Shown here: piece after piece, positions 7,541 through 36,775 of the stretch
Layout of the letters: each line of letters starts with the position of its first letter
How positions within the stretch are numbered: position 1 is the stretch's first letter
Origin: a virus
UHGV virus genome: UHGV-0211200
Strand: one strand, 5' to 3'
Length of the DNA stretch: 45,784 nt
Translations under genes and position numbers: made by a program
Notes under the pieces: model-generated
What the model was told of the DNA's origin: nothing
The model's input: the letters and a program-made list of their open reading frames with translations, nothing else
Database searches by the model: none

Positions 7541-7541
7541 G

Positions 7542-20120: not shown

Positions 20121-20138
20121 ATCTTTTCCTTTCTGGAA

Positions 20139-20489: not shown

Positions 20490-20970
20490 ATAAAAGTGGA
20501 GTCCCTTCGTTATCTTTTACTCCCATCAGATACACCTTTGCGGTATCATACAGGAGCTTATTGGTTGCCTGTTCATCCCCTGCCGCAGAGTATACAGCAC
20601 TCCAGGCTTTAGCTCCATTGGCTATTTCAGAAGGGGATGCATAGCTGATTGATTCGGAACCGGATGACTTTGACGTGATAACGCCTGTGGTTGCGCCGCC
20701 GGTCCCGCTGGTTATACTTCCAGCGGCGGCAGATAGCGCCTGTTTTTCTGCCAGATCCAAACCATACAGCTTATCAGCTAAGGCACATACGGCTTTCTTG
20801 ATTTTGGTCTGCTCTCGTTCATTTTCTGGGAGGCCGTCAACCAATCGTTTAAATGTCATCATATCAAGAAAGTCGCTTGCCCGTTCTGCCTGTTTATCAA
20901 ATGATTGGGAATCAGGTATGGCACTGCCGTAGTATTTTGTTGTGTAAAATTCATAGTCTGCATATGCCAT
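20476..20970 (-). CDS. head-tail connector / DNA-packaging (gp6-like) protein
   Basis: 164 aa. N-terminal MAYADYEFYTTKYYGSAIPDSQSFDKQAERASDFLDMMT resembles siphovirus head-tail connector proteins. Located after the MCP. Confidence 0.45.
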   Translation of the reverse strand: MAYADYEFYTTKYYGSAIPDSQSFDKQAERASDFLDMMTFKRLVDGLPENEREQTKIKKAVCALADKLYGLDLAEKQALSAAAGSITSGTGGATTGVITSKSSGSESISYASPSEIANGAKAWSAVYSAAGDEQATNKLLYDTAKVYLMGVKDNEGTPLLYAGL

Positions 20971-20983
20971 ATTGATTCCTCAC

Positions 20984-21187
20984 TCACTCTGCCGCTTGCC
21001 TTTTTCTTTTAATGCTACACAGCTTAGTACATTTTGCCATGACTTCCGCGAGGGTATATTCCCCCATGGAATCCGTCATGGATGACTGTTCCTTGCTGTA
21101 TGTCACCTTACCATCCTTGATGTCGACCGGGTACAGCCTCCCGTTTGATACCATGTAAGGCAGCCCGTCAATGATTGTAAACCTCAT
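20984..21187 (-). CDS. small hypothetical protein after the major capsid gene
   Basis: ORF 20984..21397 trimmed to the Met in MRFTIIDGLPYMVSNGRLYPVD (67 aa), the first ATG after the MCP stop. The upstream part overlaps the MCP gene. Confidence 0.25.
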   Translation of the reverse strand: MRFTIIDGLPYMVSNGRLYPVDIKDGKVTYSKEQSSMTDSMGEYTLAEVMAKCTKLCSIKRKRQAAE

Positions 21188-21197
21188 ACTGTACACC

Positions 21198-22217
21198 TTA
21201 TCCGTTGGAAATAATCTGACCGATACGGATGTTCTTTGCCTTGTATGCAAGCTCCCAGTTAGCCTTGTTTCCAAGTTCTGTCTTGGTCGGGGATTCCCCG
21301 GAAATGCTTGCAACCTTGAGATTGAAGCCGTTCGGATGCAGTACACGGCCTTCCTTGGTATACAGTTTCTCGATACCTGCCTTTGTCTCCGCATCATAGT
21401 CTGTGTAATACGGCTCGTTGTAATTGGTCTTCTCTGCCGTCAGGATGGCACTCTGTCCCACGATTGTGGTGATGTACTTCGGGACATCACCGGATGCATC
21501 CACCGTGAACCGGTCAGACACTACCGGGATGAGGCCGTTGATTGTCGGGAGGTTGACCTCCGATGTCATGGCATTCTGGATGGTGTACTTGTTATAGTTC
21601 ACAAGCCCCATTGCCTGGTATCTCGCAAATATGAGTGAGTTCATGATTGCGATTCCGAAACCGTTCGCCATGTCCCCAAGGGCCTTCTGCTGCGCATAAA
21701 TCATGGTCGTTTCGTCAATCCTGTTGGCATCCTGTACGCTGCTCCCATCCGAAAGGGCAATGTTATATACATGGTCCTTCATCGAATCCAGCCCCATGAC
21801 CGCATTCACGATGTTCATGAGTTCGGCCTCCCATACCTGCCGGTAATAGTCGGACACGCTGTTTGCGATATGCTGAATCGGGTCCGCCCCGGTAAGCTCC
21901 TTCGTGAAGTCCTGCGCTTTCCATGCCATCATCCTCTGAATCAGCATGGCGGTCTGCTTTCCGCCGCTAATCTCCTTCGGCGTGTTGTTCGTGTTACCAT
22001 CATTGTTGTACGGCTCATAGTCTGCAATGTCCATTGCCTTATAGAATGGCAGTGTAGCAACATTACCCTCGGAACCGATGAGGTTCATGATGGTGCTGTC
22101 CTGCTGGAGTATGCCGGATGCGATGATTGCATTGCTCCATGTGGGCTGCTCCGACATATAATCGGAAAATACTTCCGGGTCAAATGCAAACCCTCCAAAT
22201 GTACCTGTTCTTGGCAT
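21198..22217 (-). CDS. major capsid protein (HK97-fold)
   Basis: 339 aa. N-terminal MPRTGTFGGFAFDPEVFSDYM is typical of Firmicutes phage major capsid proteins. Follows the scaffold gene. Confidence 0.8.
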   Translation of the reverse strand: MPRTGTFGGFAFDPEVFSDYMSEQPTWSNAIIASGILQQDSTIMNLIGSEGNVATLPFYKAMDIADYEPYNNDGNTNNTPKEISGGKQTAMLIQRMMAWKAQDFTKELTGADPIQHIANSVSDYYRQVWEAELMNIVNAVMGLDSMKDHVYNIALSDGSSVQDANRIDETTMIYAQQKALGDMANGFGIAIMNSLIFARYQAMGLVNYNKYTIQNAMTSEVNLPTINGLIPVVSDRFTVDASGDVPKYITTIVGQSAILTAEKTNYNEPYYTDYDAETKAGIEKLYTKEGRVLHPNGFNLKVASISGESPTKTELGNKANWELAYKAKNIRIGQIISNG

Positions 22218-22223
22218 GATTCA

Positions 22224-22844
22224 TTATCCTTTCATACTGTTATAGAGTTCCGGGTTGCTGTTCTTGAGCGCAATCCTCTCGTCAAGGCTCATTCCCTTCC
22301 AATCCGCTTTTGTTAATTTTCCTGCGCTTCCGCTTTTGCCGGCCGGGACCGTGAACCTCGCCATGTTCTGTTGTGCCTGTTGCTGTGCATCATCAACAAA
22401 CGCCGAAGCATCTTTTTCTTTCATTTGAGATAAAAGGTCATTCAGCCCCAGGATTTTACCATCTTTTAGCTTTAAATCGGCCTCTTTTACTTCTGCCATA
22501 ATTGCACGTTTAGCTGCCTCGCTGGAAAATTTAATGCCTTCAAATTCTGTTTTAAGCGCATCCGCAAAATCACGTTCATAAAGCTGTGCCTGGGCGTTTT
22601 TTTCGGCTTCTGTAGCTTTCTGTTTCCAATCAGACAGTTCTTTCTGCATCGTCTCCAGGTCAACCCCTTCAAAGCCTTTCAGCGTTGTTTCTGCTGCTTC
22701 TGCTTTTTCTTTCCAAGTATCCCGTTCCGATGTCAGATTGTCGTTTTCTTTCTGCAACTTTTTGAGGTCTTTCCCATTTTCAGCCATGACAAAAGATATC
22801 TGTTCCTCTGTTAATCCCTGTGCTTTTAATTCTTCAGTTTTCAT
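22224..22844 (-). CDS. capsid scaffolding protein
   Basis: 206-aa acidic coiled-coil-like protein (EELKAQGLTEEQISFVMAENGKDLKKLQKEND...). RBS AAGGAG 8 nt before the ATG. Immediately upstream of the MCP. Confidence 0.7.
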   Translation of the reverse strand: MKTEELKAQGLTEEQISFVMAENGKDLKKLQKENDNLTSERDTWKEKAEAAETTLKGFEGVDLETMQKELSDWKQKATEAEKNAQAQLYERDFADALKTEFEGIKFSSEAAKRAIMAEVKEADLKLKDGKILGLNDLLSQMKEKDASAFVDDAQQQAQQNMARFTVPAGKSGSAGKLTKADWKGMSLDERIALKNSNPELYNSMKG

Positions 22845-23106
22845 TGATGATTCTCCTTTTCCGTTATTAGGTTATTTGTAGGTGTGTAACCGTCCACCAA
22901 CGGTTTGCCATTTTGTAGGACTTGGCGTGTCCCAAAACGCACATGCCGGAAATTGCATCCGCTTTTCAACCTCCAGGCTGTTTACGCTAAGCGTTAGAAC
23001 CTGTTTCTTTTAAGGACATGTGCTATAGGAAGGAGGTCAAATATAAGAAAAAGCCACACAAACTACATTGCTGTAATCTGTATGGCTCTGCGACTGGCGA
23101 CTGGCT

Positions 23107-23343
23107 CTAATTAATGTTTTGCATTCTTTTTATTTCACTTCCATATATATCCATTACAGTTGTATTCCTACACTTTGGACAAAACACAGGTAAATTCTTG
23201 GCTTCGGTATCTTTTCTGATTTTTGTTCTCGTCTTATTACTGCATATGGGGCAGTATACCCAACCATCTTTTACCATGTTTTCACCCTTTCTGTTTATTC
23301 TTACTCCCATTTTACTGTATTCGCAAGAAATAATCGTCCCCAC
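23107..23343 (-). CDS. cysteine-rich KTR-domain small protein
   Basis: YCPICSNKTRTKIRKDTEAKNLPVFCPKCRNTTVMDI matches the Cys_rich_KTR pattern (CP.C..KTR.KIR.DT..KN.P.FCPKC). Confidence 0.5.
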   Translation of the reverse strand: MGTIISCEYSKMGVRINRKGENMVKDGWVYCPICSNKTRTKIRKDTEAKNLPVFCPKCRNTTVMDIYGSEIKRMQNIN

Positions 23344-23384
23344 ATTTTGTAAAGGCGGTAGGACTTTTTCCCACCGCCAATGTG

Positions 23385-23930
23385 TTACATCATATTACGC
23401 AACTTTTCGATATATCTTTTCATGGTTTCCCGCTCCTCGCGGCAGTCAGCATCTTTTGACATCTCGCCTAATTCCTCGGTGAGAGCATCCATATGTTCCT
23501 CCAGTGCAGAAAGCATACGCCGTTTGCAATCTTCATCTTTTCCGCCGGATCGGTAACTTTGCTTCTGATTCATATAGTCATCATACGCAGCTGGACCAGT
23601 TGCACGGCTGTAATGACCTCTGACATAATGCTTTCCTCTGGTACCGCGATAAGAGCTGTCATTATCGTAGTCTGGAGACATACGTCCATCAGCGCGGCTA
23701 TAGCGTCCCATACTATCACGCTTGCGGCGTGCTTCGCTGTACTCTCCACCATCCATTTCATCCATTACCTGGTTGTAGTACTCTTCCTTGCATTTCCAGT
23801 ACTCTACATTCTCCATGTCTTTCCACATGTCAATCAGTTTGTATGCGGTTTCAAGGTTGCTAGTGTTCAGGCCCTTTTCCGCAATCTTATCCAGTTCTTC
23901 GTGGATATTCTGCATCATCTTATAACTCAT
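23385..23930 (-). CDS. hypothetical protein with helical ends and a disordered R/S/Y/D-rich centre
   Basis: 181-aa ORF. Central SMGRYSRADGRMSPDYDNDSSYRGTRGKHYVRGHYSRATG is low-complexity, reminiscent of spore-coat-type proteins. Confidence 0.4.
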   Translation of the reverse strand: MSYKMMQNIHEELDKIAEKGLNTSNLETAYKLIDMWKDMENVEYWKCKEEYYNQVMDEMDGGEYSEARRKRDSMGRYSRADGRMSPDYDNDSSYRGTRGKHYVRGHYSRATGPAAYDDYMNQKQSYRSGGKDEDCKRRMLSALEEHMDALTEELGEMSKDADCREERETMKRYIEKLRNMM

Positions 23931-23942
23931 AGCCTTACCCCC

Positions 23943-24341
23943 TTAACCTATTCTGCTAACAACAAGGTTAGCGTCTGATACTGTCGCCGCTGTGGCTCCA
24001 ACGTTTTTTACCGATAAGGTAGCACAACATGGCTTGCACACTCGTACTTCTACAGTTGCTGCTCCATTGATTGTTGCGCCGGCGGCAACTGTGTTCTGGA
24101 TTCTTGCACCGGGAATGCCTTCGCCGTCCTGCTGTATTTCAAAAATTACATCTCCTGCCGCAGCTGCGGAAAAGTTTCCGTTAAATCCTACACGGTACAG
24201 GCCAGGAAGTAAAACTACTCTCCCAGAAAGTGGCTCATGTCTTATATTTGGACAATTGCAAGAATATATCCGGTTTGCTGCAAACAAAACACTTGCATTG
24301 ACTTCAACGGTCTGTGTGCCAGCAGTTACAAAATCTGCCAT
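23943..24341 (-). CDS. BclA C-terminal-domain-like (C1q/TNF-like beta-sandwich) protein
   Basis: 132 aa. GLYRVGFNGNFSAAAAGDVIFEIQQDGEGIPGARIQNTVAAGATINGAATVEVRV...LSVKNVGATAATVSDANLVVSRIG follows the BclA-CTD pattern. RBS AAGGAGG before the ATG. Confidence 0.45.
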   Translation of the reverse strand: MADFVTAGTQTVEVNASVLFAANRIYSCNCPNIRHEPLSGRVVLLPGLYRVGFNGNFSAAAAGDVIFEIQQDGEGIPGARIQNTVAAGATINGAATVEVRVCKPCCATLSVKNVGATAATVSDANLVVSRIG

Positions 24342-24406
24342 AATAATTCCTCCTTATATGCACAGAAGGGCAAGCCTGTGCCTACCCCTCCATGTGTGTA
24401 ATACTA

Positions 24407-24643
24407 CTATTCAGTAGACATGTCCTTTTCGGACAAGATACGCAATATGCGGTTGTTTTGGTCGATAATCTTTTCCATGTATTCTTTATTTTGCTGTTGA
24501 AGCGCCTCCATAATATCATTATTAGAAGCTTCTCCCAAAAGCAAAAACACATCAATCATTTGTAATGCTGCTGCATATAAAGCAAGATTATCGTAAAACT
24601 GTTCGTTTCGAGTTAGCATCCGCATCCAGCATTGCACCCACAA
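24407..24643 (-). CDS. hypothetical small helical protein
   Basis: 78-aa ORF overlapping the upstream gene by 31 nt. Confidence 0.3.
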   Translation of the reverse strand: MWVQCWMRMLTRNEQFYDNLALYAAALQMIDVFLLLGEASNNDIMEALQQQNKEYMEKIIDQNNRILRILSEKDMSTE

Positions 24644-25317
24644 TTAGATGCATATGGATATGGCGCCGGTACTGTATAAGCCGGTACAGGCTGCGGCTGA
24701 CGAAGCTGGGCAACGATTGAGTTACCAACTGCATCAATAAAGCCGTTCTGGGCTGTCTGGCTTGCCTGGAACCTAAGAGTCTGATTCTCTGCCTGGAGGC
24801 TGGAAATCTTGTCCTGAGTCAGGAAGTCAAGGATAGCCCTGGTGTTGCTGTTATTATTGTCCAGGATATCCCTAGTTGCAGTCTGAATGGTATTTCTGGT
24901 GTCGCAAGACTGTGTAGCCAGATTGTAGTTTACGCCATCAATAGCGCGCTGTGTCTGGCAGCAGCAATCCTGGAGCTGATAGCCCATCTGGCATAAGCTA
25001 CGGTCAACACCGTTAAATCCGCTGGTAATAGTGTTGTTCAGAGCGTATGTGCTGTCACAGATACCTTGCTGGATACCTCTAATTCCGTTTTCTATACCGT
25101 TCAAAGCAAAACCTTCATTGATATCTGCTCTGGTTGCAAGACCCTGGAGTCCCGCTCCATTTGCACCGTTGCCGCCGAAGCCATTGCCCCAGCCTCCCCC
25201 AGCGAACAGGAAGAGAACGATAATCCAAATCCAATCGCCCCACATACCATCGCCATTTCTGTTATTTCCGTTTCCTGTAGCGGCTGCAATGTCCGCTAAA
25301 GAGTAACCACTTTCCAT
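24613..25317 (-). CDS. membrane protein with YjcZ-like Gly-rich hydrophobic segment and Cys-rich C-terminus
   Basis: 234 aa. WGDWIWIIVLFLFAGGGWGNGFGGNGANGAG. Cys clusters DCCCQ and a terminal NCGCNAGCGC. Confidence 0.45.
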   Translation of the reverse strand: MESGYSLADIAAATGNGNNRNGDGMWGDWIWIIVLFLFAGGGWGNGFGGNGANGAGLQGLATRADINEGFALNGIENGIRGIQQGICDSTYALNNTITSGFNGVDRSLCQMGYQLQDCCCQTQRAIDGVNYNLATQSCDTRNTIQTATRDILDNNNSNTRAILDFLTQDKISSLQAENQTLRFQASQTAQNGFIDAVGNSIVAQLRQPQPVPAYTVPAPYPYASNCGCNAGCGC

Positions 25318-25371
25318 AAAATTTACTCCTTTTAAAATATATTTACAAAATCATGCGCATTGATTTATGTA

Positions 25372-25620
25372 CTATTTTTTCATTCCGCCAAGCATCTGCT
25401 GAAACTGCTGGGCCATCTGCTGTGCTTGATTAAGCTGGTCCTGTGTAATCTGCCCCGACTGTAGCATTTTCTGTACTTCTTCCTGGGGATTACCTTTAAA
25501 GTTGTTTTTAAATTCCATAAATTTCTGAATCATTTGCATTGGGTTATTTCCGCCTCCCATTCCAGGCATCATGCCACCCATTGGTGAAGCGCCGCCCAAC
25601 ATGCTAAATAATGGATTCAT
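25372..25620 (-). CDS. Met/Gly/Gln-rich small protein
   Basis: 82 aa. MLGGASPMGGMMPGMGGGNNPMQMIQKFMEF...QQMAQQFQQMLGGMKK, low complexity. Confidence 0.4.
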   Translation of the reverse strand: MNPLFSMLGGASPMGGMMPGMGGGNNPMQMIQKFMEFKNNFKGNPQEEVQKMLQSGQITQDQLNQAQQMAQQFQQMLGGMKK

Positions 25621-25623
25621 ATA

Positions 25624-26094
25624 TTATTTCCCCTTTCCGCTTGGAGCTGTGCTGGATTCTAAAAGGCCGTACAATTCATCATATTTTGCCTTTAAATCCT
25701 GATACTCGTTTCTGGTAACATACTTTTCATCCAGATTTTCAGCCGGTACAGATTCTTTTTTCTGACCATTGACAATCTCTTTATATTCAAAAGTGCGAAG
25801 CGTTGGCATTCCTGCCGCATCGGTTGTCTTAATATAAAAATACTCATTTTCGCTATCCATCAGCAATATGGATGTGCTGGGAGCCACTAAATATGACTTT
25901 GCCCCGGCTTCCCCCTGTACCCATAAGATACCCTGATTCGTCTGCGGAACCTGCGGAACTTGTGTCTGCTGTTGCATCTGATATGGTGCCTGTAGCTGCT
26001 GCAATCGGTCCATAGGTGGTTGCATCTGTGGCTGATAAGGATGTGCGTTTGGATATGTATTCAGATAGTTTGGATTGATAAATGGTTGCGGCAT
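25624..26094 (-). CDS. Pro/Gln-rich N-terminus protein with C-terminal beta-rich domain
   Basis: 156 aa. RBS GGAGGGG before the ATG. First gene after a terminator. Confidence 0.45.
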   Translation of the reverse strand: MPQPFINPNYLNTYPNAHPYQPQMQPPMDRLQQLQAPYQMQQQTQVPQVPQTNQGILWVQGEAGAKSYLVAPSTSILLMDSENEYFYIKTTDAAGMPTLRTFEYKEIVNGQKKESVPAENLDEKYVTRNEYQDLKAKYDELYGLLESSTAPSGKGK

Positions 26095-26132
26095 TATATC
26101 CCCTCCGTTCTTTTATAATCAAATTATCCCAT

Positions 26133-26168
26133 AAAAAATAAGCCAATGACAGGTCATCAAAGGCTTAT
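26133..26168 (-). terminator. rho-independent terminator (minus strand)
   Basis: Stem ATAAGCC (26138-26144) / GGCTTAT (26162-26168) with a nested TGAC-AG-GTCA. On the minus strand it is followed by TTTTTTAT. Confidence 0.5.
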
Positions 26169-26211
26169 AAAAGTATCACACTGTTATTATTACAGTTTTT
26201 TTCATTCTGAT

Positions 26212-26502
26212 TTAGATGTGCCTCCACTCTAAAACAATCCACTTTTCTATTCCATCCTTATCAATCACATGGAACTTCGGATTTTCCTTTCCACCCAGTA
26301 CCTCATTCGGTGAATAAGTCCAGCCCCATGGTGCTGTCAACACAATGCCTGTTTCTGTTTCGTCACAGGCCCATCCTTCTGGCACTGTGTATTCTATCGG
26401 TTCACTTGTGGTTGCTGTTGGGGATGGATTCCCCTCAGTGAATACCGGATGCTTCTCAGCAGATAAACATCCATAATTTATGTATCCTTTAAAAGTTTTC
26501 AT
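26212..26502 (-). CDS. hypothetical protein
   Basis: 96-aa ORF, last gene of the XRE-headed minus-strand unit. Confidence 0.4.
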   Translation of the reverse strand: MKTFKGYINYGCLSAEKHPVFTEGNPSPTATTSEPIEYTVPEGWACDETETGIVLTAPWGWTYSPNEVLGGKENPKFHVIDKDGIEKWIVLEWRHI

Positions 26503-26520
26503 ATTTACATCCTCCTCTTC

Positions 26521-26838
26521 TTAGTCCAGTTTATATTCAAATATTGTTTCCAGCTGTGAGGAATAGAAACGTATTACCCTGTATTTCTCCTCGACTTCCT
26601 GCGCAGGGAAGTCACCCTCCCCTATGATTTCGTTGCCGTCATAGATGGTAAAGCAATAATGCACACCCATGTTTCGGTCATATTTCATCAGATATTTTTT
26701 TCCATCCACTACGATATCATCAACAATACCATAGGTTCTGAGTGTCCTATCATAAATACTCTTATAATGCCGTTTGATTTCTGCGGATAAATCATCCGCA
26801 AACCCTTTTGTCAACCACCTCATTGCATTCACCTCCAT
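26521..26838 (-). CDS. hypothetical protein
   Basis: 105-aa ORF. Start may be the internal Met (MRWLTKG). Confidence 0.4.
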   Translation of the reverse strand: MEVNAMRWLTKGFADDLSAEIKRHYKSIYDRTLRTYGIVDDIVVDGKKYLMKYDRNMGVHYCFTIYDGNEIIGEGDFPAQEVEEKYRVIRFYSSQLETIFEYKLD

Positions 26839-26923
26839 CTTTTGCTATACTTGTATTGGATTGGGGGAGCGGTGGCAAGCCCGCCCTCCCCTGATTCATT
26901 GTCCTGTCCTTTACGGGACTTTT

Positions 26924-27136
26924 TTAATTGTCCTCAATACCTTTCTGGGTATCGTCTATGAGTTTGTCCACCATTATTTCGGCACGCTCATATTCTTTGT
27001 TTTTAAGTGCTTCCTTCAAATCTTTCAAATCCTGTAGCAATCTCCGTAAGTAGCTTTTAAATACGCTCATTTCCTCTGTCAAGTTCCTTTCCTCCTCATA
27101 TTCGTTAAGGACCTTGCCTTCCTTAACCATCTTCAT
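26924..27136 (-). CDS. hypothetical coiled-coil protein
   Basis: 70-aa ORF (EERNLTEEMSVFKSYLRRLLQDLKDLKEALKNKEYERAEIM). Confidence 0.4.
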   Translation of the reverse strand: MKMVKEGKVLNEYEEERNLTEEMSVFKSYLRRLLQDLKDLKEALKNKEYERAEIMVDKLIDDTQKGIEDN

Positions 27137-27165
27137 TATACACTAATTTAGTGCATATGTCAATG

Positions 27166-27399
27166 CTATTCAAAGAAATATTTCACTTTTTCTTCATCAG
27201 TTGCTTCTATCTCTATAATGTCTGATGGCTGTTTTCTAAGCATTATGCAAACCGATTCCAGCGCCGTAATTGGCAAGGGTTTTCCAGCACGGATATTTGT
27301 TAATGCCGTTTCGCTTAAGTATTTATTTTTTCTTATTATATAGGTACTGTATCCTTTTTTCTTAAGTTCTTCTAAAATATCTATCTTATATTTTATCAC
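27166..27399 (-). CDS. XRE-family HTH transcriptional regulator, divergent from the plus-strand cassette
   Basis: 77 aa. GYSTYIIRKNKYLSETALTNIRAGKPLPITALESVCIMLRKQPSDIIE is a typical HTH_XRE. Confidence 0.6.
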   Translation of the reverse strand: MIKYKIDILEELKKKGYSTYIIRKNKYLSETALTNIRAGKPLPITALESVCIMLRKQPSDIIEIEATDEEKVKYFFE

Positions 27400-27482
27400 T
27401 TTTCCACCTCCCTACAATTGCATTATATCATAGGTTTAAATAAATGCAATAAAAATATACACTAAAAAAATGCATTTTTCTA

Positions 27483-27511
27483 TTGACATATACATTAAAA
27501 TAATGTATACT
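27483..27511 (+). promoter_or_regulatory. near-consensus sigma-A promoter with an overlapping operator-like inverted repeat
   Basis: TTGACA at 27483-27488, 17-nt spacer, TATACT at 27506-27511 with an upstream TG. Inverted repeat TATACATT (27489-27496) / AATGTATA (27502-27509). Palindrome AAAAATGCATTTTT at 27466-27479. RBS AGGAGG before the ATG at 27553. Confidence 0.55.
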
Positions 27512-27552
27512 ATAGTCAGAAGTTAAGAGTACGAAAAACAGGAGGTAGCAAA

Positions 27553-27939
27553 ATGAAGAAATATAATTTATCAAACATCATGAAGCGGGCATGGGAATTA
27601 GTAAAGAAAACAGCAATGACAATGAGCGCCGCACTCAGGCAGGCATGGAAGGAAGCAAAGGAAATGGGAGGAAACTTACTGGAAACCTTAAAGACAAACC
27701 TTGAGGCTATGGCTTATGGTGATTACCACATCAATGCTGGCGTTGATCGCCAGGTAGCCGTAAAGAAGTGGGAAAGTGGTAATGCCAAGAGGGCATACCT
27801 CACCATTAACTGTTACACCGCAAATGGCCGCGGCAAAGGCTCCTACAAATGCGGTTACGTAGATTTAGTAACCAATCAGTATGTTGTTGGTAAGTATGAC
27901 GATGTAGACGCATCCAACAGACAGTACATCGGCAGATAA
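27553..27939 (+). CDS. hypothetical protein (plus-strand moron gene 1)
   Basis: 128 aa with strong promoter and RBS. N-terminal helices (IMKRAWELVKK...SAALRQAWKEAK), then a beta-rich Gly/Tyr-rich domain. Confidence 0.55.
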   Translation: MKKYNLSNIMKRAWELVKKTAMTMSAALRQAWKEAKEMGGNLLETLKTNLEAMAYGDYHINAGVDRQVAVKKWESGNAKRAYLTINCYTANGRGKGSYKCGYVDLVTNQYVVGKYDDVDASNRQYIGR

Positions 27940-27997
27940 TTTAATTTTAAAGATACATGATATCCTGGCCCCCAGGGATAAGGGGAGAAAGATAGAT

Positions 27998-28546
27998 ATG
28001 AATACATATAAAGAAGACGGCATGATAGTCAAGCCATTTTATTATTACTCAACTACGATATATGGCAAAGATAGCAGAGGCACTGCAGCTATAATAATTG
28101 ACCAGTGTAACCGCACGGTAGACATCGACCTTACTGCCGGTGCCATGCCGTTCGCAAGGGATGTAATCCTGTTCCTATTATCTGATAAGGATGTCAGGTT
28201 ACTTATTCGGAAATATCAACAGTCGAAACGCCACGAACTGTTTTCCATCAGGGTTTCGGCAGGATTTTCTGGGAGGCATGACATCTATATTAATTATTAT
28301 AATAAGCACGGCCTCCAGACAGGCGGGAAGAAGCTTTTACATGTTTCCCAGTATGGGAAGCTGAATGAGGGATGGAGGAAAATGTATATAGGGGACTTCG
28401 TAGAGATGGCGGCGTTCCTAATGGAACAGTCGAATTCCGATTATGACCTGTCCAACCCAAAGCGGCTCCGCAGGTTAAGCGGTTGCCAGTACATCAAAGG
28501 GTATTTCTGTGATAATGCAGCATGTGATGTCAGTAAGATATTTTAA
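27998..28546 (+). CDS. hypothetical protein (plus-strand moron gene 2)
   Basis: 182-aa ORF, 58 nt after gene 1, same strand. Followed by a terminator hairpin. Confidence 0.55.
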   Translation: MNTYKEDGMIVKPFYYYSTTIYGKDSRGTAAIIIDQCNRTVDIDLTAGAMPFARDVILFLLSDKDVRLLIRKYQQSKRHELFSIRVSAGFSGRHDIYINYYNKHGLQTGGKKLLHVSQYGKLNEGWRKMYIGDFVEMAAFLMEQSNSDYDLSNPKRLRRLSGCQYIKGYFCDNAACDVSKIF

Positions 28547-28583
28547 GCGGCTGCACGACTGGGCAAGGTACATTAAATACAAC

Positions 28584-28614
28584 AAAAAAACAGGCCAAAC
28601 TTATGCTTGGCCTG
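28584..28614 (-). terminator. terminator hairpin at the convergence of the plus-strand cassette and a minus-strand unit
   Basis: A7 run (28584-28590), then stem CAGGCCAA (28591-28598) / TTGGCCTG (28607-28614), 8-nt loop. On the minus strand the stem is followed by U7. Confidence 0.5.
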
Positions 28615-28956
28615 CCTACGACTTAACAGTAAACCACCGATAGCTGGATGATATGGCTTTTTTCAATCCACGCCCTAAAGGGCGAACAGCAACTGTTGTG
28701 CCGGTACTTAGATACACGGAGCATATCCTCCGAAGTAATCATATTATAGCATGATTTCCTTGAAATGTAAATAGCAAAAAGTGAATAGCAAGATGCTACG
28801 CACTTTTTACACACTCATAAATTTAATATAACTTATTTCTACCCACAGGGATGGTTTCCCATCCCTGACACGTACATTGTATGTCTGCCACTGACTATAG
28901 TATATATCAGATGGGGCAGGAAATCAAGAATATAGTAACGATGTGCATTTTTTATA

Positions 28957-29157
28957 TTAACACACCCTTATAATTTTGTTATTTACTTTTCGACTCAACC
29001 TTTTTGCAGTGGAAATACTTACATTCATCAGTTCAGCGCAATATTCCAAAGGATAATTTTTAGCCCGATACTCAAACAGTGCCCGTTCCTCATCCGTAAA
29101 GTTACAATATGTACGAAAATAATTTAGTTCTGGCACTGTAAAGTCATATACCTTCAA
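28957..29157 (-). CDS. sigma-70 region-4-like / LuxR-type HTH mini-protein
   Basis: 66 aa. FTDEERALFEYRAKNYPLEYCAELMNVSISTAKRLSRKVNNKI resembles sigma region 4. Confidence 0.45.
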   Translation of the reverse strand: MKVYDFTVPELNYFRTYCNFTDEERALFEYRAKNYPLEYCAELMNVSISTAKRLSRKVNNKIIRVC

Positions 29158-29168
29158 AGCAACGCTCC

Positions 29169-29462
29169 TTAAATACCTTCTGACAAATGTTTTATCATTG
29201 TTTCTTTTGTTTTTTTTAAACCATCTATGTTGTTACCAGTTATACGATTATCAATTAATGCTATCATTCCTTGGCATAAAAGAGATTGCATATCTCTTAT
29301 TTCTTGGATGGATTTATAATCCTTTTCTACATTTATTTCCAATTTATCCACTCGTTTTTTTAATTTAAATGCTGGATGAAACAATTTGTATATTACGGCT
29401 CCTGCGCCTCCAAGAGTAATAAGCCAACCGCATACAACCATAATAGAGTTTAATGTTTCCAT
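29169..29462 (-). CDS. small membrane protein with N-terminal TM and coiled coil
   Basis: 97 aa. IMVVCGWLITLGGAGAVIYKLF, then a helical region. Confidence 0.4.
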   Translation of the reverse strand: METLNSIMVVCGWLITLGGAGAVIYKLFHPAFKLKKRVDKLEINVEKDYKSIQEIRDMQSLLCQGMIALIDNRITGNNIDGLKKTKETMIKHLSEGI

Positions 29463-29465
29463 AAA

Positions 29466-29846
29466 TTATCGCCTTTCCCAGTAGTATATTGGTATTTCCT
29501 GCCCGCTGTCCCATGTATCGTAATAATATCCATCCTGCACGCATACCACATGACCGTCTATTGCCAGTATATAAGTACCCATAGGATTATCCTGGCAAAA
29601 GTCCTCTACCGTGTAAACATCTTTCCCGTGGTCGTCAACTATGTATCGTTTAAACCCATTCTGCCTCAGGTACGCTCCCCATACATGATTAGCTGACGGC
29701 ATATCAGATAGTGCACAGGCGCAGACAGTCACACCAGCAAATACCATTTCCCAGTCACTGTCTATGGCTTTGGCTATAGCTCGGATGGGGCAATCACCAA
29801 CACGCTGATTGCGTGGATTAGGATTAAATAGTTTCCATCTGCTCAT
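29466..29846 (-). CDS. hypothetical protein with conserved Cys and His (possible papain-like hydrolase fold)
   Basis: ORF trimmed to MSRWKLF, whose ATG overlaps the minor-head-protein stop (ATGA). GDCPIRAIAKAI ... GHVVCVQDGYYYDTWDSG. Confidence 0.45.
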   Translation of the reverse strand: MSRWKLFNPNPRNQRVGDCPIRAIAKAIDSDWEMVFAGVTVCACALSDMPSANHVWGAYLRQNGFKRYIVDDHGKDVYTVEDFCQDNPMGTYILAIDGHVVCVQDGYYYDTWDSGQEIPIYYWERR

Positions 29847-31066
29847 TCTTCTTTTCCTTTCGCATTCTGATACCGCCGCGCTGCTCCCCTGGCCTTTGCG
29901 GCTTGTTCCCGGTTCCATCTCGCAATCTGTAACCGTTCTTGCTGGGTGCGCAAGTCGTTCATTTTACAAAATTCGTTATATGCCTTATTCTGCCGCTGTA
30001 ACAGATACGACTTGCGGTCAATGTCTAACTGCATTTCAAATTTAACTGATTCGTCCTTGCATTTATCCACGGCCTCCTGCATCCCCATGACTTCACGTTT
30101 GGTCTTTCTGATGCGCCGTTCAAGCGTTCGCTGCCGATTCTCCAGCTGCTCAACCTTGTAATTGTCTGCGGTTTGGATGTCTTTGTATGGATTGTTTACC
30201 CCATCACCGCTTCCGAAGGAGTGACGGCAGTTCCATCCACATAACCCTTCACCTGTTCCGTATCCAGTCTGGGAAAATGGAGGAAAGCGCTTATCCTTTC
30301 CAGTCCTGCTATAAAACTGCCCTTGCCACCATAAATGATTGCCCGGATTCTGCCCTCCGTCACCGGTTCTGGCCCCGATGTGCGCCGACACCAGTATGAT
30401 ATCCCAGTCCATTTCTTCCATACGCTTAATAGATATATCTCCCGTGGCCTGGGCTACTCCGGTGCGTACTGCGCGCGCTGTGGCAGTTTCTATGGTATCT
30501 TTGTGGTCCGAAGGATATTGTACTATCACTCCGACCGATACCACATTATTAACTGCCCCTTTGACAGCCTGTGTGTATGATACAGCCCCAGAAGATACAA
30601 GATGGTAAGCATTATCGCACTCATTGATAAAAAGCCTTTGTGCGGCTTCTGCTGTGGTCCTAGTATAGTTTTTCCACTCTCCTATTGTTGCATCCATGTT
30701 TCGTTCCATCAATCGAATAAGCTGCGGTGATTGGGTAAGCGGTGTTGGAGACAAACCAGCAGCTTCATATATTTTATGGTCGTATTCCAGGGCCTTGACT
30801 CCAGCTTCTTCCATTGCGGACTTGATTTCTTTTTTCTGCCGCTTAGTGACTTTGGATAACTCTGCCGTTATATCCTCCAGCAGATATCCTGCATCCTGCA
30901 ATATCTGTATGCGCCATCGGTCAGATGAGGTGAGCAGGTAATCATCACCGCGGCCTATGCGTATCATCATGCGGTCTATTATCTGACGGATAATGTATGT
31001 ATGGAGCTGTGAGGCTATTTCTTCGCTTCCTTCTGCGATTCTTGCAAGGTACTCAGGGCTTAACAT
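29843..31066 (-). CDS. minor head protein (Phage Mu F-like / SPP1 gp7-like)
   Basis: 407 aa. GWNCRHS motif typical of Mu-F-like head morphogenesis proteins. Immediately downstream of the portal. Confidence 0.8.
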   Translation of the reverse strand: MLSPEYLARIAEGSEEIASQLHTYIIRQIIDRMMIRIGRGDDYLLTSSDRWRIQILQDAGYLLEDITAELSKVTKRQKKEIKSAMEEAGVKALEYDHKIYEAAGLSPTPLTQSPQLIRLMERNMDATIGEWKNYTRTTAEAAQRLFINECDNAYHLVSSGAVSYTQAVKGAVNNVVSVGVIVQYPSDHKDTIETATARAVRTGVAQATGDISIKRMEEMDWDIILVSAHIGARTGDGGQNPGNHLWWQGQFYSRTGKDKRFPPFSQTGYGTGEGLCGWNCRHSFGSGDGVNNPYKDIQTADNYKVEQLENRQRTLERRIRKTKREVMGMQEAVDKCKDESVKFEMQLDIDRKSYLLQRQNKAYNEFCKMNDLRTQQERLQIARWNREQAAKARGAARRYQNAKGKEE

Positions 31067-31171
31067 TTACTCTTCCTTCTTTCCCTTATGTCTAATCGAC
31101 CATTCAAATACTTTCGGGGCAAATGGACCAAGTGGTATATTGAATACTATCCAAATTAATAAGCTTCTCAA
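31067..31171 (-). CDS. possible 34-aa hydrophobic peptide between portal and minor head genes
   Basis: TTG start 7 nt after GAGGAGG. Product LRSLLIWIVFNIPLGPFAPKVFEWSIRHKGKKEE. Its stop overlaps the ATG of the minor head gene. Confidence 0.2.
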   Translation of the reverse strand: MRSLLIWIVFNIPLGPFAPKVFEWSIRHKGKKEE

Positions 31172-31172
31172 T

Positions 31173-32606: not shown

Positions 32607-32610
32607 TTAG

Positions 32611-36699: not shown

Positions 36700-36775
36700 G
36701 TTTACCTTCTTTCTCCGCCACTTCGGCAGGTAGCATCCATTTCGGTGTATATTGTTCTTTGCTTTTTGGTTTATG

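What the first reader, a model, noticed from the sequence alone, without database searches (positions are those of the whole stretch)
22845..29846. ~6.6-kb accessory island splitting the head-morphogenesis module between the minor head and scaffold genes
In SPP1-like siphoviruses, portal, minor head protein, scaffold and major capsid genes are normally contiguous or separated by only a few small ORFs. Here about 6.6 kb of small genes sits between the minor head gene (29843..31066) and the scaffold gene (22224..22844). It contains at least four transcription units with their own signals. These are a minus-strand terminator at 26133-26168, a convergent terminator at 28584-28614, a near-consensus plus-strand promoter, and two plus-strand genes antisense to late transcription. 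The island also carries two dedicated HTH regulators. Contents and organisation look like a compound moron or lysogenic-conversion region, not virion components. Such regions are where phage-borne defence, anti-defence or host-manipulation systems are usually found.
Basis: partly seen in the sequence, partly recalled or inferred. Interest (0 to 1): 0.7.

Follow-up and report, generated by a model that had tools for sequence, protein, structure and literature searches.

The report
Nested accessory cassettes splitting phage head genes
The 7 kb between the minor-head and scaffold genes of this Enterocloster prophage is real accessory DNA made of three nested layers, the largest being a widespread, self-regulated gene cassette of unknown function found in temperate phages of gut Clostridia.

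Summary

The region is not one island. It has three layers:

- **Backbone (22845-23343).** Two known structured RNAs (GP20-b, RAGATH-21) form the scaffold-gene leader. A strong terminator and a small zinc-ribbon gene follow. Relatives that lack everything else still keep these.
- **Conserved cassette (23385-26178 and 28955-29846).** It holds g150, g97, a sigma-region-4-like regulator (g66), a conserved cis element, and then g156-g82-g234-(g78b)-g132-g181. About 60 of 80 close relatives and 80 species-level Clostridia genomes carry it. It sits in this head slot or, more often, elsewhere, typically between lysis genes and the integrase. Its dN/dS is 0.015-0.15. A relative with about 82% identical head proteins lacks it.
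- **Nested 2,776-bp insertion (26179-28954).** It carries three of the window's four near-consensus sigma-70 promoters, an HTH gene, five orphan genes and a strong terminator. Nearly all relatives lack it.

No defence, anti-defence or structural family matched. The moron reading is therefore partly supported, and function remains inferred.

The parts
22868..22932 (-). GP20-b RNA (RF03003), a candidate cis-regulatory leader directly upstream of the scaffold (GP20) gene. Backbone, not cargo.
   Evidence: Rfam 39.4 bits (gathering score 36.2), full-length model. The leader is 91-96% nt identical in relatives. The motif is described upstream of GP20 genes (PMC10690425).
22938..23024 (-). RAGATH-21 RNA (RF03097), a structured RNA in the scaffold-gene leader.
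   Evidence: Rfam 83.7 bits (gathering score 70.3), E=1e-15. Also found in L001, L002 and L081. In five relatives two tRNA genes sit exactly between it and GP20-b.
23050..23089 (-). Strong intrinsic terminator that ends the cassette/KTR transcription unit before the scaffold leader.
   Evidence: 18-bp stem plus U-run, -25.0 kcal/mol, z = -6.9; no shuffle out of 200 folded as well.
23107..23343 (-). Cys_rich_KTR zinc-ribbon gene. The likely start is the ATG at 23277, giving 56 aa. It belongs to the backbone.
   Evidence: PF14205 E=1.5e-19. Retained next to the scaffold gene in relatives that lack the cassette (L029, L041, L067, L068). dN/dS 0.06.
23385..23930 (-). g181, last gene of the cassette. 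Helical ends flank an Arg/Tyr/Ser/Gly-rich low-complexity centre.
   Evidence: phrog_28802 E=2.6e-75. Syntenic in about 126 ORFs of the fetched loci. dN/dS 0.018.
23943..24341 (-). g132, a stand-alone BclA-C-like (TNF/C1q-like) beta-sandwich candidate with 5 Cys.
   Evidence: phrog_20016 E=2.2e-12. Orthologues P0136, P0139 and L081:8912-9322 hit PF18573 BclA_C at E=1.5e-7 to 4.9e-7, below the gathering score. hhalign of family alignment A7 against F-BclA-CTD: probability 73.5%, E=3e-5. dN/dS 0.043.
24407..24643 (-). g78b, a small helical protein (70 aa from 24619 by public gene calls). Facultative cassette member.
   Evidence: PF22556 E=2.6e-6, 27.8 bits against cut-off 27. Present in only 53 ORFs of the loci. 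dN/dS 0.15.
24613..25317 (-). g234, the signature protein of the cassette. Features in order: N-terminal hydrophobic/Gly-Trp-rich segment, helical region with an invariant CCC motif, long helix, Pro-rich stretch, CGC tail.
   Evidence: phrog_16490 E=6.9e-62. At least 7,998 homologous clusters with no Pfam domain and no name. Invariant residues listed. AF2 model is poor (pLDDT 47) but helical, with H131-206. KD19 maximum 1.46 at residues 30-48. dN/dS 0.049.
25372..25620 (-). g82, a Met/Gly/Gln-rich small protein.
   Evidence: phrog_22984 E=5.4e-23. Translationally coupled to g156 in most loci (gaps of -7 to +7). dN/dS 0.031.
25624..26094 (-). g156, first gene of the operon. Pro/Gln-rich N-terminus, small beta domain with the invariant motif NQGxLWVQGEAxAxSYLVAP, and a C-terminal helix.
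   Evidence: phrog_21718 E=1.2e-47. 679 homologous clusters. Alignment A2. AF2 pLDDT 53 with five strands and a helix. dN/dS 0.040.
26123..26177 (-). Conserved cis element between the regulator and the operon. It comprises an ACTTT box, the palindrome CTTTGAY-N5-GTCAxxG (hairpin 26138-26168), a T-run, and an extended -10 (TG at 26131-26130, GATAAT at 26128-26123).
   Evidence: The composite pattern occurs 61 times in 2.79 Mb of loci. 57 of these lie less than 150 nt upstream of a g156 homologue, against 0.25 expected. Alignment and partial covariation. Hairpin energy -12.6 kcal/mol.
26179..28954 (.). Nested 2,776-bp secondary insertion in the g66-to-g156 spacer (hot spot 1).
   Evidence: L001, L004 and L026 join window 26178 directly to 28955. 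Other relatives carry unrelated inserts of 313-1,909 nt at the same junction. The identical insert is seen at this site in 8 metagenome contigs.
26212..26502 (-). g96, an orphan gene that moves between hot spots.
   Evidence: Homologues (72-81% aa) lie upstream of terS in L026 and L053, and in inverted orientation in hot spot 2 of L057. dN/dS 0.22.
26521..26838 (-). g105, an orphan gene (100 aa from 26823 by public gene calls).
   Evidence: No family hit. Only near-identical copies were found.
26924..27136 (-). g70, an orphan coiled-coil-like gene whose start codon overlaps the -10 box of the perfect promoter.
   Evidence: ORF and sequence. No family hit.
27135..27163 (-). Perfect sigma-70 consensus promoter, TTGACA-17-TATAAT.
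   Evidence: 12 of 12 matches.
27166..27399 (-). g77, a Cro/C1-type HTH regulator transcribed divergently from p128 and p182.
   Evidence: PF13443 HTH_26 E=1.2e-5, 25.9 bits against cut-off 22.
27483..27511 (+). Near-consensus promoter for p128 and p182.
   Evidence: TTGACA-17-TATACT, 11 of 12 matches.
27553..27939 (+). p128, an orphan gene and the conserved partner in the mobile HTH module.
   Evidence: 87-88% aa homologue in L026 and L053, next to an HTH gene but with a different downstream payload. dN/dS 0.25. No family, PADLOC or PDB hit.
27998..28546 (+). p182, an orphan payload gene.
   Evidence: Its 90%-identity cluster has 4 members. No hit in phages, Pfam, PHROGs, PADLOC or PDB.
28588..28617 (-). 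Strong terminator facing the late operon. The same hairpin lies after p182 on the plus strand but has no U-run there.
   Evidence: -19.8 kcal/mol, z = -4.7 on the minus strand; -13.6 kcal/mol on the plus strand.
28588..28771 (-). Near-consensus promoter (28771-28743, TTTACA-17-TATAAT with TG) followed by an approximately 150-nt structured transcript that ends at the terminator. Candidate sRNA or 33-39-aa ORF.
   Evidence: -51.2 kcal/mol, z = -3.1. Only near-identical copies are known.
28957..29157 (-). g66, a 66-aa sigma-70 region-4-like HTH protein. Putative dedicated regulator of the cassette.
   Evidence: phrog_1190 E=1.8e-5 over region 4. Named 'ECF sigma factor' in a TPA record. It sits 53-280 nt upstream of the operon in both genomic slots. 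dN/dS 0.015.
29169..29462 (-). g97, a small protein with an N-terminal transmembrane helix and a coiled coil.
   Evidence: KD19 maximum 1.98 at residues 6-24. The 15-21-nt spacing to g66 is conserved. dN/dS 0.10.
29466..29846 (-). g150 (126 aa), whose start codon overlaps the minor-head stop codon (ATGA). Candidate Cys-His-Asp enzyme.
   Evidence: phrog_3754 E=6.5e-35. ATGA overlap read directly from the sequence. Invariant D18, C19, R22, W32, L60, H99 and D110 in 28 diverse orthologues. 1,411 clusters at 50% identity. dN/dS 0.041. No Pfam or PDB match.

Best explanation
**Overall.** The gap between the minor-head and scaffold genes is a recombination hot-spot region holding three nested layers. 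None is needed to build the capsid.

**Layer 1, backbone.** This is the scaffold gene's structured RNA leader (RAGATH-21 plus GP20-b), a strong terminator and a KTR zinc-ribbon gene.

**Layer 2, the conserved cassette.** It is a mobile, self-contained accessory cassette shared by temperate phages of gut Clostridia.
- Gene order is g150, g97, regulator g66, a conserved cis element, then the operon g156-g82-g234-(g78b)-g132-g181.
- The same cassette occupies either this head slot or a site outside the head module, typically the classical cargo slot between lysis genes and the integrase.

**Proposed working of layer 2 (inferred).**
- The hairpin and T-run after g66 stop read-through from the head operon.
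- g66, a sigma-region-4-like HTH protein, acts on the TTGAC-containing palindrome and ACTTT boxes next to an extended -10 promoter. It thereby sets expression of the operon.
- The products form a multi-protein assembly associated with the cell envelope. g234 would anchor through its hydrophobic N-terminus and project a coiled coil with a Cys-rich tail. g132 would be a TNF-like trimer. g156, g82 and g181 would be low-complexity partners. g150 would process or cross-link them as a Cys-His-Asp enzyme.
- This assembly would act on the host cell, for example in surface or envelope conversion or in exclusion, and would not be part of the capsid.

**Layer 3, the nested insertion.** A recent 2.78-kb moron-type insertion carries three near-consensus sigma-70 promoters, an HTH switch, orphan payload genes and a terminator. 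It is probably expressed from the prophage.

**Confidence by claim.** Architecture about 0.85. Accessory rather than essential for the capsid about 0.8. g66/operator regulation about 0.45. Host-level envelope role about 0.35.
For: **Shown: nested structure.**
- Exact insertion junctions are 26178/28955.
- Relatives carry other inserts at the same junction, and there are two further hot spots, g181-to-KTR and KTR-to-scaffold.
- L029 lacks 23348-29869 although its flanks are 76% nt identical.

**Shown: cassette conservation and mobility.**
- The same gene order occurs in about 60 of 80 IMG/VR relatives and in 80 species-level genomes.
- 20 of those 80 genomes have it flanked by minor-capsid and/or scaffold genes, and 60 have it elsewhere.
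- Where it is elsewhere, upstream ORFs carry endolysin or holin domains. Downstream ORFs carry Phage_integrase (13), Resolvase (2), HTH_3 (6), Peptidase_M78 (3) or host genes.
- In bajarodcaudo virus 5 the cassette follows the holin and lysin.

**Shown: independence from the capsid.** The MCP is swapped for unrelated types (339, 298 and 390 aa) in contigs whose cassette is otherwise about 95-100% identical.

**Shown: selection.** dN/dS is 0.015-0.15, tighter than the scaffold gene at 0.19.

**Shown: cis element.** It is specific to the position upstream of g156, with 57 of 61 occurrences there against 0.25 expected.

**Shown: regulator position.** g66 or an s85 analogue always lies 5' of the operon.

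**Shown: nested element.** It holds 3 of the window's 4 near-consensus promoters and a strong terminator. Parts of it sit elsewhere in L026 and L053 with a different payload.

**Precedent.** SPP1 ORFs 8-10 are morons in the same slot.
Against: **Function is untested.**
- No family, structure or literature match assigns a role to any cassette protein.
- Both AF2 models are of low confidence.

**Points that fit late, possibly virion-related expression.**
- The cassette is co-oriented with late genes in both slots.
- g150 is translationally coupled to the minor-head gene.
- None of the proteins has a recognisable signal peptide.

**Weak points in individual assignments.**
- The g234 hydrophobic segment is short, with KD19 of 1.46, below the usual 1.6.
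- The BclA_C assignment is sub-threshold, and the family profile did not retrieve BclA from the PDB.
- The Cys-His-Asp reading of g150 rests only on invariant residues.
- Binding of g66 to the element is inferred from position and from the TTGAC core alone.

**Limits of the comparative data.**
- Many of the 57 motif occurrences come from closely related phages.
- L029 is an 8.9-kb metagenome fragment, so its viability is unknown.
Confidence: 0.6

Rival explanations
1. The conserved cassette encodes non-essential virion-associated proteins. They could be internal or ejected head proteins that travel with the gp7/MuF-like minor head protein, or head or neck decoration built from the TNF-like g132. 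They would be made late and packaged or attached during assembly.
For: - The cassette lies inside the late structural operon and is co-oriented with it.
- An ATGA overlap couples g150 to the minor-head gene. A -3 overlap recurs in L097, L126, L155 and L161.
- No signal peptides are present.
- Gly-rich hydrophobic and low-complexity segments resemble those of ejection proteins.
- BclA-C-like/TNF-like domains are common tips of phage fibres (own knowledge).
- Purifying selection is strong.
Against: - 60 of 80 species-level loci place the cassette outside the head module, typically after the lysin and next to the integrase. That is a cargo slot.
- The cassette stays constant while the MCP is exchanged for unrelated types. 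A lattice-binding decoration protein would not be expected to tolerate this.
- A relative with about 82% identical head proteins lacks the cassette.
- The cassette has its own regulator and promoter element, and a terminator separates it from the head genes.
- No PHROG structural annotation applies.
Confidence: 0.25
2. The region is a phage-borne defence, anti-defence or superinfection-exclusion island. The HTH/p128/p182 module, the membrane proteins g97 and g234, or both would block competing phages or host immunity.
For: - Variable hot spots in structural operons often hold such genes (own knowledge).
- The nested element has prophage-type sigma-70 promoters, an HTH switch and a payload position that differs between relatives.
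- Membrane-anchored prophage proteins are typical of exclusion systems (own knowledge).
- The same phage carries an Acb2/Tad1-hairpin protein elsewhere.
Against: - PADLOC gave no hit for 10 island proteins.
- No Pfam, NCBIfam or PHROG function was found.
- p128 and p182 have no PDB relatives.
- dbAPIS and DefenseFinder were not available.
- A six-gene cassette rich in low-complexity and Cys-rich proteins resembles no described defence system.
Confidence: 0.2
3. The intervening genes are conserved, essential head-morphogenesis components of this phage lineage and are not accessory.
For: - Most close relatives carry the same genes in the same order at the same place.
- dN/dS is low.
Against: - 12-14 of 80 relatives have only 300-1,300 bp between the minor-head and scaffold genes.
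- L029 has a clean deletion.
- The cassette occurs outside the head module in most species.
- Nearly all relatives lack the nested insertion.
Confidence: 0.03
4. The small ORFs are chance ORFs in non-coding spacer DNA.
For: - Several genes of the nested insertion (p182, g105, g70, g77) have no diverged orthologues, so selection cannot be measured for them.
Against: - Cassette genes match PHROG families at E values down to 1e-75.
- They have hundreds to thousands of homologous clusters.
- Their dN/dS is 0.015-0.15, and g96 and p128 show 0.22-0.25.
- g77 has a Pfam HTH domain.
Confidence: 0.01

Closest known systems
SPP1 ORFs 8-10 plus oriR segment between gene 7 (minor head) and gene 11 (scaffold), described as morons (Godinho et al. 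2018, PMC6316719)
   Same: The slot in the gene order is the same. The segment interrupts an otherwise conserved head module, is bracketed by transcription signals, and holds small genes of unknown function.
   Different: The region here is about 7 kb with 16 genes and is nested. It includes a 6-8-gene cassette that is conserved across many species and also occurs in a second genomic slot. No sequence similarity to SPP1 ORFs 8-10 was tested or seen.
Classical lambdoid/HK97 morons (a promoter-gene-terminator unit inserted between genes of a phage operon; Juhala et al. 2000, cited in PMC6316719)
   Same: The nested element 26179-28954 has its own near-consensus promoters and a strong terminator. 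It is present or absent at a precise junction.
   Different: Its composition is not clearly atypical, with GC 0.40 against 0.45-0.46 in the flanks. Expression from the prophage is untested. The element holds several units, not one gene.
BclA C-terminal domain / F-BclA-CTD (TNF/C1q-like trimeric head of exosporium and endospore-appendage collagen-like proteins; PF18573; bioRxiv 10.1101/2025.02.11.637640)
   Same: The g132 family gives sub-threshold full-length Pfam matches (E about 1e-7). hhalign against F-BclA-CTD gives probability 73.5%, E=3e-5. Domain size is similar at about 130-140 aa.
   Different: g132 has no collagen stalk and no exosporium leader. It is phage-encoded and rich in Cys. 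The window protein itself scores no Pfam hit, and the family profile does not retrieve BclA from the PDB. The match to ExsF is negligible.
GP20-b (RF03003) and RAGATH-21 (RF03097) RNA motifs
   Same: Both match above the Rfam gathering score, and GP20-b lies directly upstream of a GP20/scaffold gene as described.
   Different: Nothing differs in kind. What is new is the tandem arrangement, and the tRNA pair inserted between the two RNAs in relatives.
Small sigma-region-4-like or ArpU/RinA-type phage transcription regulators of Firmicutes phages
   Same: g66 is a small HTH protein resembling sigma-70 region 4. It is placed immediately 5' of the operon it presumably controls.
   Different: g66 is only 66 aa, with region 4 alone and no region 2. 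It sits inside the late region and controls, by inference, an accessory cassette and not the whole late operon. Family membership was not established.

Membership tests
Moron (independent accessory transcription unit in a phage operon): nested element 26179-28954 | Presence/absence polymorphism at a precise junction between related phages | tested here: met
   L001, L004 and L026 join 26178 directly to 28955. Other relatives carry different inserts at the same junction.
Moron (independent accessory transcription unit in a phage operon): nested element 26179-28954 | Own promoter and own terminator | tested here: met
   Three sigma-70 sites with at most 1 mismatch lie inside the element, against 0.55 expected for the whole window. 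The terminator is -19.8 kcal/mol, z = -4.7. These are consensus and energy evidence only, and no TSS data exist.
Moron (independent accessory transcription unit in a phage operon): nested element 26179-28954 | Nucleotide composition distinct from neighbouring genes | tested here: inconclusive
   GC is 0.401 against 0.448-0.464 in the flanks. CAI values overlap.
Moron (independent accessory transcription unit in a phage operon): nested element 26179-28954 | Expressed from the repressed prophage | not testable with these tools
   This needs RNA-seq of an Enterocloster lysogen.
Essential head-morphogenesis genes (conserved cassette) | Present in all relatives that share the head module, and linked to the capsid protein type | tested here: not met
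   12-14 of 80 relatives lack the cassette. L029 has a clean deletion. The MCP is exchanged while the cassette stays constant. The cassette lies outside the head module in 60 of 80 species-level loci.
BclA_C (PF18573) TNF/C1q-like domain: g132 | Match to the family HMM above the gathering score | tested here: not met
   The window protein gives no hit. Three orthologues score 30-32 bits against a cut-off of 38, at E about 1e-7 with full-length coverage.
BclA_C (PF18573) TNF/C1q-like domain: g132 | Profile or structural similarity to a solved BclA-type head domain | tested here: inconclusive
   hhalign of A7 against F-BclA-CTD gives probability 73.5%, E=3e-5, over 71 columns. The A7 profile against the PDB finds no BclA. 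No structure model was made for g132.
Papain-like Cys-His-Asp peptidase/transglutaminase fold: g150 | Invariant Cys, His and Asp in that order | tested here: met
   C19, H99 and D110 are invariant in 28 orthologues down to 22% identity.
Papain-like Cys-His-Asp peptidase/transglutaminase fold: g150 | Sequence or structure match to a known peptidase family | tested here: not met
   No Pfam family has E below 0.03 in any of 28 members. No PDB hit has E below 0.3. No structure model was available.
Known anti-phage defence systems (PADLOC-DB v2) | HMM match of any island protein | tested here: not met
   No hits for 10 proteins at E of 0.01 or below.
GP20-b RNA (RF03003) | Covariance-model score above gathering, and a position upstream of a GP20/scaffold gene | tested here: met
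   39.4 bits against 36.2. The match ends 24 nt before the scaffold start codon.
RAGATH-21 RNA (RF03097) | Covariance-model score above gathering | tested here: met
   83.7 bits against 70.3, full-length.
Sigma-70 family / ECF sigma factor: g66 | Regions 2 and 4 both present | tested here: not met
   g66 is only 66 aa. The PHROG match covers profile positions 110-155 of 167, which is region 4 only. There is no Pfam hit.

The most novel reading that the evidence does not exclude
The conserved g150/g66/g156-g181 cassette would be a previously undescribed functional system of temperate Clostridia phages. It would be a self-regulated operon that builds a cross-linked, membrane-anchored protein layer or fibre. 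Its composition (Cys-, Gln-, Tyr-rich proteins, a BclA-C-like trimer and a Cys-His-Asp enzyme) recalls spore-coat and exosporium proteins. It would convert the surface of the host cell or its spore. A sigma-region-4-like mini-regulator would switch it on by acting on a TTGAC palindrome.
Probability: 0.2. Interest if true: 0.8.

Novelty: new member of a known kind. Interest (0 to 1): 0.5.

Why it matters
- **Scale of the unknown.** The g234 family alone has at least 7,998 clusters at 90% identity, and g150 has 1,411 clusters at 50% identity. None has a name, a Pfam domain or a mention in the searched literature. Yet the cassette is under stronger constraint than the scaffold gene. It spans Lachnospiraceae, Oscillospiraceae, Acutalibacteraceae and other gut Clostridia.
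- **A tractable entry point.** A cassette this common, mobile between two prophage slots and equipped with its own regulator and operator, is a promising way into unknown biology of gut temperate phages. Enterocloster lysogens are culturable.
- **A worked example of mosaicism.** The locus shows hot-spot nesting inside a head module in fine detail. There are three junction-precise hot spots. Their cargo includes homing-endonuclease-like genes, tRNAs and a mobile HTH module.
- **A link to orphan RNA motifs.** The locus places RAGATH-21 and GP20-b together in the scaffold-gene leader.

Tried and rejected
**Searches that returned nothing useful**
- Megablast of 20000-34000 against 50,697 phage records gave only a 44-bp hit.
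- Pfam, PHROGs, NCBIfam and PADLOC gave no functional annotation for cassette or payload proteins.
- PDB sequence and profile searches for g150, g132, g156, g234, p128, p182 and alignments A1, A2, A5 and A7 found nothing below E=0.03.
- Literature searches for the PHROG or DUF identifiers returned no papers.
- The names sources give these proteins are all 'hypothetical', apart from 'ECF sigma factor', a 'DUF2680' label on a homologue, and a spurious 'CTP synthase'.

**Structure prediction**
- AF2 with 31-sequence alignments gave pLDDT 47 for g234 and 53 for g156.
- Foldseek of the g156 model against the PDB gave no match with E of 0.001 or below. The models were not used further.

**Ideas considered and set aside**
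- g150 as a C39-like or papain-like enzyme is supported only by invariant C/H/D residues, not by any profile. It is kept as inference.
- The g234 N-terminus as a double-glycine leader cleaved by g150 was dropped, because the Gly-Gly is not conserved in alignment A1.
- g132 as an ExsF-like protein was dropped (hhalign probability 2.8%).
- Sporulation-sigma promoters upstream of g156 were considered, but the element reads as an extended -10 sigma-A-type site. No test was possible.

**Compositional and statistical tests without signal**
- GC and codon usage do not discriminate the island.
- Loose promoter counts are not enriched.
- The hairpin in the cis element shows only modest covariation, with 2 of 6 pairs changed on both sides.

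Full report
**Observation**

- 29843-31066(-) is a Phage_min_cap2 minor head protein (PF06152, E=9.7e-73; phrog_581).
- 22224-22844(-) is a scaffold protein (PF06810, E=1e-28).
- 21198-22217(-) is the major head protein and 31173-32606(-) is the portal.

Between the two flanking genes lie 6,998 bp with 16 plausible small genes, two of them on the plus strand.

The named signals exist.
- The hairpin with U-run at 26133-26168(-) is moderate: -12.6 kcal/mol, z = -2.5.
- The terminator at 28588-28617(-) is strong: -19.8 kcal/mol, z = -4.7.
- The plus-strand promoter at 27483-27511 is TTGACA-17-TATACT.
- g77 is a Cro/C1-type HTH protein (PF13443, E=1.2e-5).
- g66 matches a sigma-factor PHROG over region 4 only (E=1.8e-5).

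Loose promoter-like sites are not enriched (24 found, 25.4 expected). Sites with at most one mismatch to the full consensus are enriched. The window has four against 0.55 expected, and no shuffle out of 100 reached four. Three of the four lie within 27135-28771.

- a stronger terminator at 23050-23089(-), -25 kcal/mol, z = -6.9;
- a perfect consensus promoter at 27163-27135(-);
- two Rfam RNAs.

**Comparison with relatives: three layers**

The minor head protein retrieved 80 IMG/VR loci at 61-100% identity. tblastn and blastn against them gave the following.

*(a) A precise nested insertion.* In L001, L004 and L026, window position 26178 joins directly to 28955. The window therefore carries a 2,776-bp insertion (26179-28954). 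It starts immediately after the g66 stop codon, inside what is otherwise a 96-nt spacer.
- Other relatives carry unrelated inserts of 313-1,909 nt at the same junction.
- Eight independent metagenome contigs carry the identical insert at this site.

*(b) A conserved gene order.* About 60 of the 80 loci share this order: minor head, (g150), g97, g66, [hot spot 1], g156, (g82), g234, (g78b), g132, g181, [hot spot 2], KTR, [hot spot 3], scaffold. Spacings are conserved to the nucleotide.

*(c) Relatives without the cassette.* Twelve to fourteen loci have only 300-1,300 bp between the minor-head and scaffold genes. L029 has head proteins 81-83% identical and flanks 76% nt identical. It joins window position 23347 to 29870 and keeps only the KTR gene and the scaffold leader.

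**Layer 1: backbone (22845-23343)**

Rfam finds two RNAs in the scaffold-gene leader:
- RAGATH-21 at 22938-23024(-), 83.7 bits against a gathering score of 70.3;
- GP20-b at 22868-22932(-), 39.4 bits against 36.2.

GP20-b is a published candidate cis-regulator found upstream of GP20 genes (PMC10690425).

The 262-nt leader is 91-96% nt identical in relatives, more conserved than the adjacent scaffold protein.

In L002, L005, L014, L057 and L097, hot spot 3 lies exactly between the two RNAs. There it holds tRNA-Ile(UAU) and tRNA-Gln(UUG).

**Layer 2: the conserved cassette**

*Family membership and coding status.*
- Its proteins belong to PHROGs of unknown function: 3754, 21718, 22984, 16490, 20016 and 28802, with E values from 1e-12 to 1e-75.
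- g234 has at least 7,998 homologous clusters, g156 has 679, and g150 has 1,411 clusters at 50% identity. None has a name or a Pfam domain.
- dN/dS is 0.015-0.15. For comparison, the minor head gene gives 0.107 and the scaffold gene 0.19. These are real, constrained genes.

*Distribution.*
- A degenerate-pattern scan of one genome per species with the g234 alignment gave 80 loci. Almost all are gut Clostridia. The closest are Enterocloster hominis (95%) and a 'Dorea sp.' MAG (97%).
- Cluster members name Enterocloster aldenensis, bolteae, clostridioformis and citroniae.
- Iterated local HMMs show the order g150-(s66)-g156-g82-g234-g132-g181 in nearly all loci, often with overlapping stop and start codons.

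*Genomic position.*
- 20 of the 80 loci have minor-capsid and/or scaffold genes flanking the cassette.
- For the other 60, Pfam scans of flanking ORFs gave the following.
  - Upstream: Glyco_hydro_25, Amidase_2, PG_binding_1, Peptidase_M23, Peptidase_M15_3 and a holin.
  - Downstream: Phage_integrase (13), Resolvase (2), HTH_3 (6), Peptidase_M78 (3) and host genes.
- Annotated examples agree. In L091-L093 the order is holin, Amidase_3, s85, g150-like, g156-like, g82-like, g234-like, g132-like, g181-like, DUF7841, followed by host DNA or a serine recombinase.
- In bajarodcaudo virus 5 the cassette follows the holin and a C39-like lysin.
- Dulem virus 35, a temperate phage, has the cassette in the head slot.
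- In this window's lineage the lysin-to-integrase junction holds no cassette genes.
- The MCP is exchanged for unrelated types in contigs with an otherwise near-identical cassette.

Together these results argue that the cassette is mobile accessory cargo and not part of the capsid-assembly machinery.

**Cassette regulation**

g66, or an analogous 85-aa HTH protein, always lies 53-280 nt 5' of the operon. The spacer holds a conserved element made of:
- ACTTT boxes at roughly 10-11-bp spacing;
- the palindrome CTTTGAC-N5-GTCAAAG, which also forms the hairpin;
- a T-run;
- TGnGATAAT.

The composite pattern occurs 61 times in 2.79 Mb of loci. 57 of those lie less than 150 nt upstream of a g156 homologue, against 0.25 expected from shuffles. 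Many of these loci are related.

The palindrome contains the TTGAC core of a -35 box. Sigma region 4 binds -35 boxes, so I infer that g66 acts there.

In one lineage the T-run is degenerate while the palindrome is kept. This suggests that the sequence matters beyond termination.

The nested insertion split this spacer after the g66 stop codon and removed the first box.

**Cassette proteins**

- **g150.** Its start codon overlaps the minor-head stop codon (ATGA). It has invariant D18, C19, H99 and D110. No profile links it to a peptidase family.
- **g97.** It has an N-terminal transmembrane helix (KD19 1.98).
- **g234.** It has a short hydrophobic Gly/Trp-rich segment, an invariant CCC motif, a long predicted helix and a Pro-rich/CGC tail.
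- **g132.** Its orthologues give sub-threshold, full-length BclA_C matches (E about 1e-7). The family profile aligns to the crystallised F-BclA head domain at hhalign probability 73.5%, E=3e-5. It does not align to ExsF and does not retrieve BclA from the PDB.
- **g156, g82 and g181.** These are rich in Pro/Gln, Met/Gly/Gln and Arg/Tyr/Ser/Gly respectively.

This composition suggests a self-assembling, possibly cross-linked multi-protein structure. That reading is inference.

**Layer 3: the nested insertion (26179-28954)**

- **Contents.** On the minus strand it carries g96, g105, g70 and g77 (HTH). On the plus strand it carries p128 and p182, driven by divergent promoters. It also has three near-consensus promoters and the strong terminator. 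That terminator would stop head-operon transcripts from running antisense through p182.
- **Candidate small transcript.** An approximately 150-nt unit lies between promoter 28771-28743 and the terminator.
- **Mobility.** Homologues of g96, the HTH gene and p128 lie between an integrase-like gene and terS in L026 and L053. There a different payload replaces p182. g96 also occurs inverted in hot spot 2 of L057.
- **Function.** No payload protein matches any family, defence model or solved structure.
- **Cargo elsewhere.** Cargo in relatives' hot spots includes HNH/AP2-like endonuclease genes on the opposite strand, HTH proteins and a KilAC/Ant-like protein.

**Comparison with what is known**

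In SPP1 the same gp7-gp11 slot holds oriR and three moron ORFs, bracketed by transcription signals (PMC6316719). The phenomenon is therefore a known kind.

New here are the depth of nesting, the junction-precise hot spots, and above all the widespread, uncharacterised, self-regulated cassette with two alternative genomic slots.

GC content and codon usage do not mark the island.

**Verdict**

- **Observation.** Confirmed.
- **Interpretation.** Partly supported. The region is accessory and compound, but much of it is a conserved cassette and part is backbone. The defence idea has no positive evidence.
- **Architecture.** Well supported (about 0.85).
- **Mechanism.** The proposed mechanism is regulation by g66 at the conserved element and an envelope-associated assembly acting at host level. 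It is inference, at about 0.35-0.45. A virion-accessory role (about 0.25) is the main rival.

Noticed in passing
window 22868-23024 (-); L002 16613-17258; also L005, L014, L057, L097: RAGATH-21 and GP20-b sit in tandem in the scaffold-gene leader. In five relatives a tRNA-Ile(UAU)/tRNA-Gln(UUG) pair is inserted exactly between them. This hints that the leader is an RNA-processing site.
   Followed up: partly
window 28588-28771 (-): A near-consensus promoter (TTTACA-17-TATAAT with TG) is followed about 150 nt later by a strong terminator. The transcript folds at -51 kcal/mol (z = -3.1). It is a candidate sRNA or 33-39-aa peptide gene, and only near-identical copies are known.
   Followed up: partly
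window 26123-26177 (-) and 57 related loci: A conserved cis element lies upstream of g156: ACTTT boxes, the palindrome CTTTGAC-N5-GTCAAAG, a T-run and TGnGATAAT. It is a probable operator/promoter for the small sigma-region-4-like protein g66.
   Followed up: yes
window 19857-20120 (-): An 87-aa Phage_holin_5_2-family gene lies among the head-completion genes, far from the lysin region at about 6672-7955. Dulem virus 35 has the same arrangement.
   Followed up: no
window 34884-36032 (-) and 5292-6383 (+): The window has two tyrosine-integrase-like genes. One (Phage_int_SAM_4 plus Phage_integrase) lies just upstream of the small terminase gene, with one small gene between them. The other is at the usual lysin-adjacent position.
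   Followed up: no
window about 36334-36801 (-): A gene product carries an Acb2_Tad1_hairpin domain, the anti-CBASS/anti-Thoeris sponge family, according to precomputed Pfam hits on the matching contig.
   Followed up: no
L094 5538-7466: The minor capsid protein of a cassette-bearing relative is 642 aa. It has a C-terminal extension containing an HEFGH zincin-like motif, reminiscent of MuF-type fusion proteins.
   Followed up: no
L083, L084 and L085 (equivalent to window 21198-22217): The major capsid gene is swapped among otherwise near-identical phages: 339 aa, 298 aa, and 390 aa with an S-layer SbsC_C domain.
   Followed up: partly
hot spot 2 (g181-to-KTR) in L004, L011, L014, L015, L054 and others: Relatives carry 0.9-1.3-kb inserts here with reverse-strand cargo. 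The cargo includes HNH/AP2-like homing-endonuclease-type genes, HTH proteins and a 113-aa orphan. The window has the empty 41-nt state.
   Followed up: partly
window 27134-27136, 26092-26094 and 28740-28742 (-): Three ATG codons overlap or directly follow a TATAAT box. At g70 and g156 the string is TATAATG. Upstream of the short transcript it is TATAATATG. For g70 this might mean a leaderless mRNA starting from the second Met. For g156 a normal Shine-Dalgarno sequence makes it probably coincidental.
   Followed up: no
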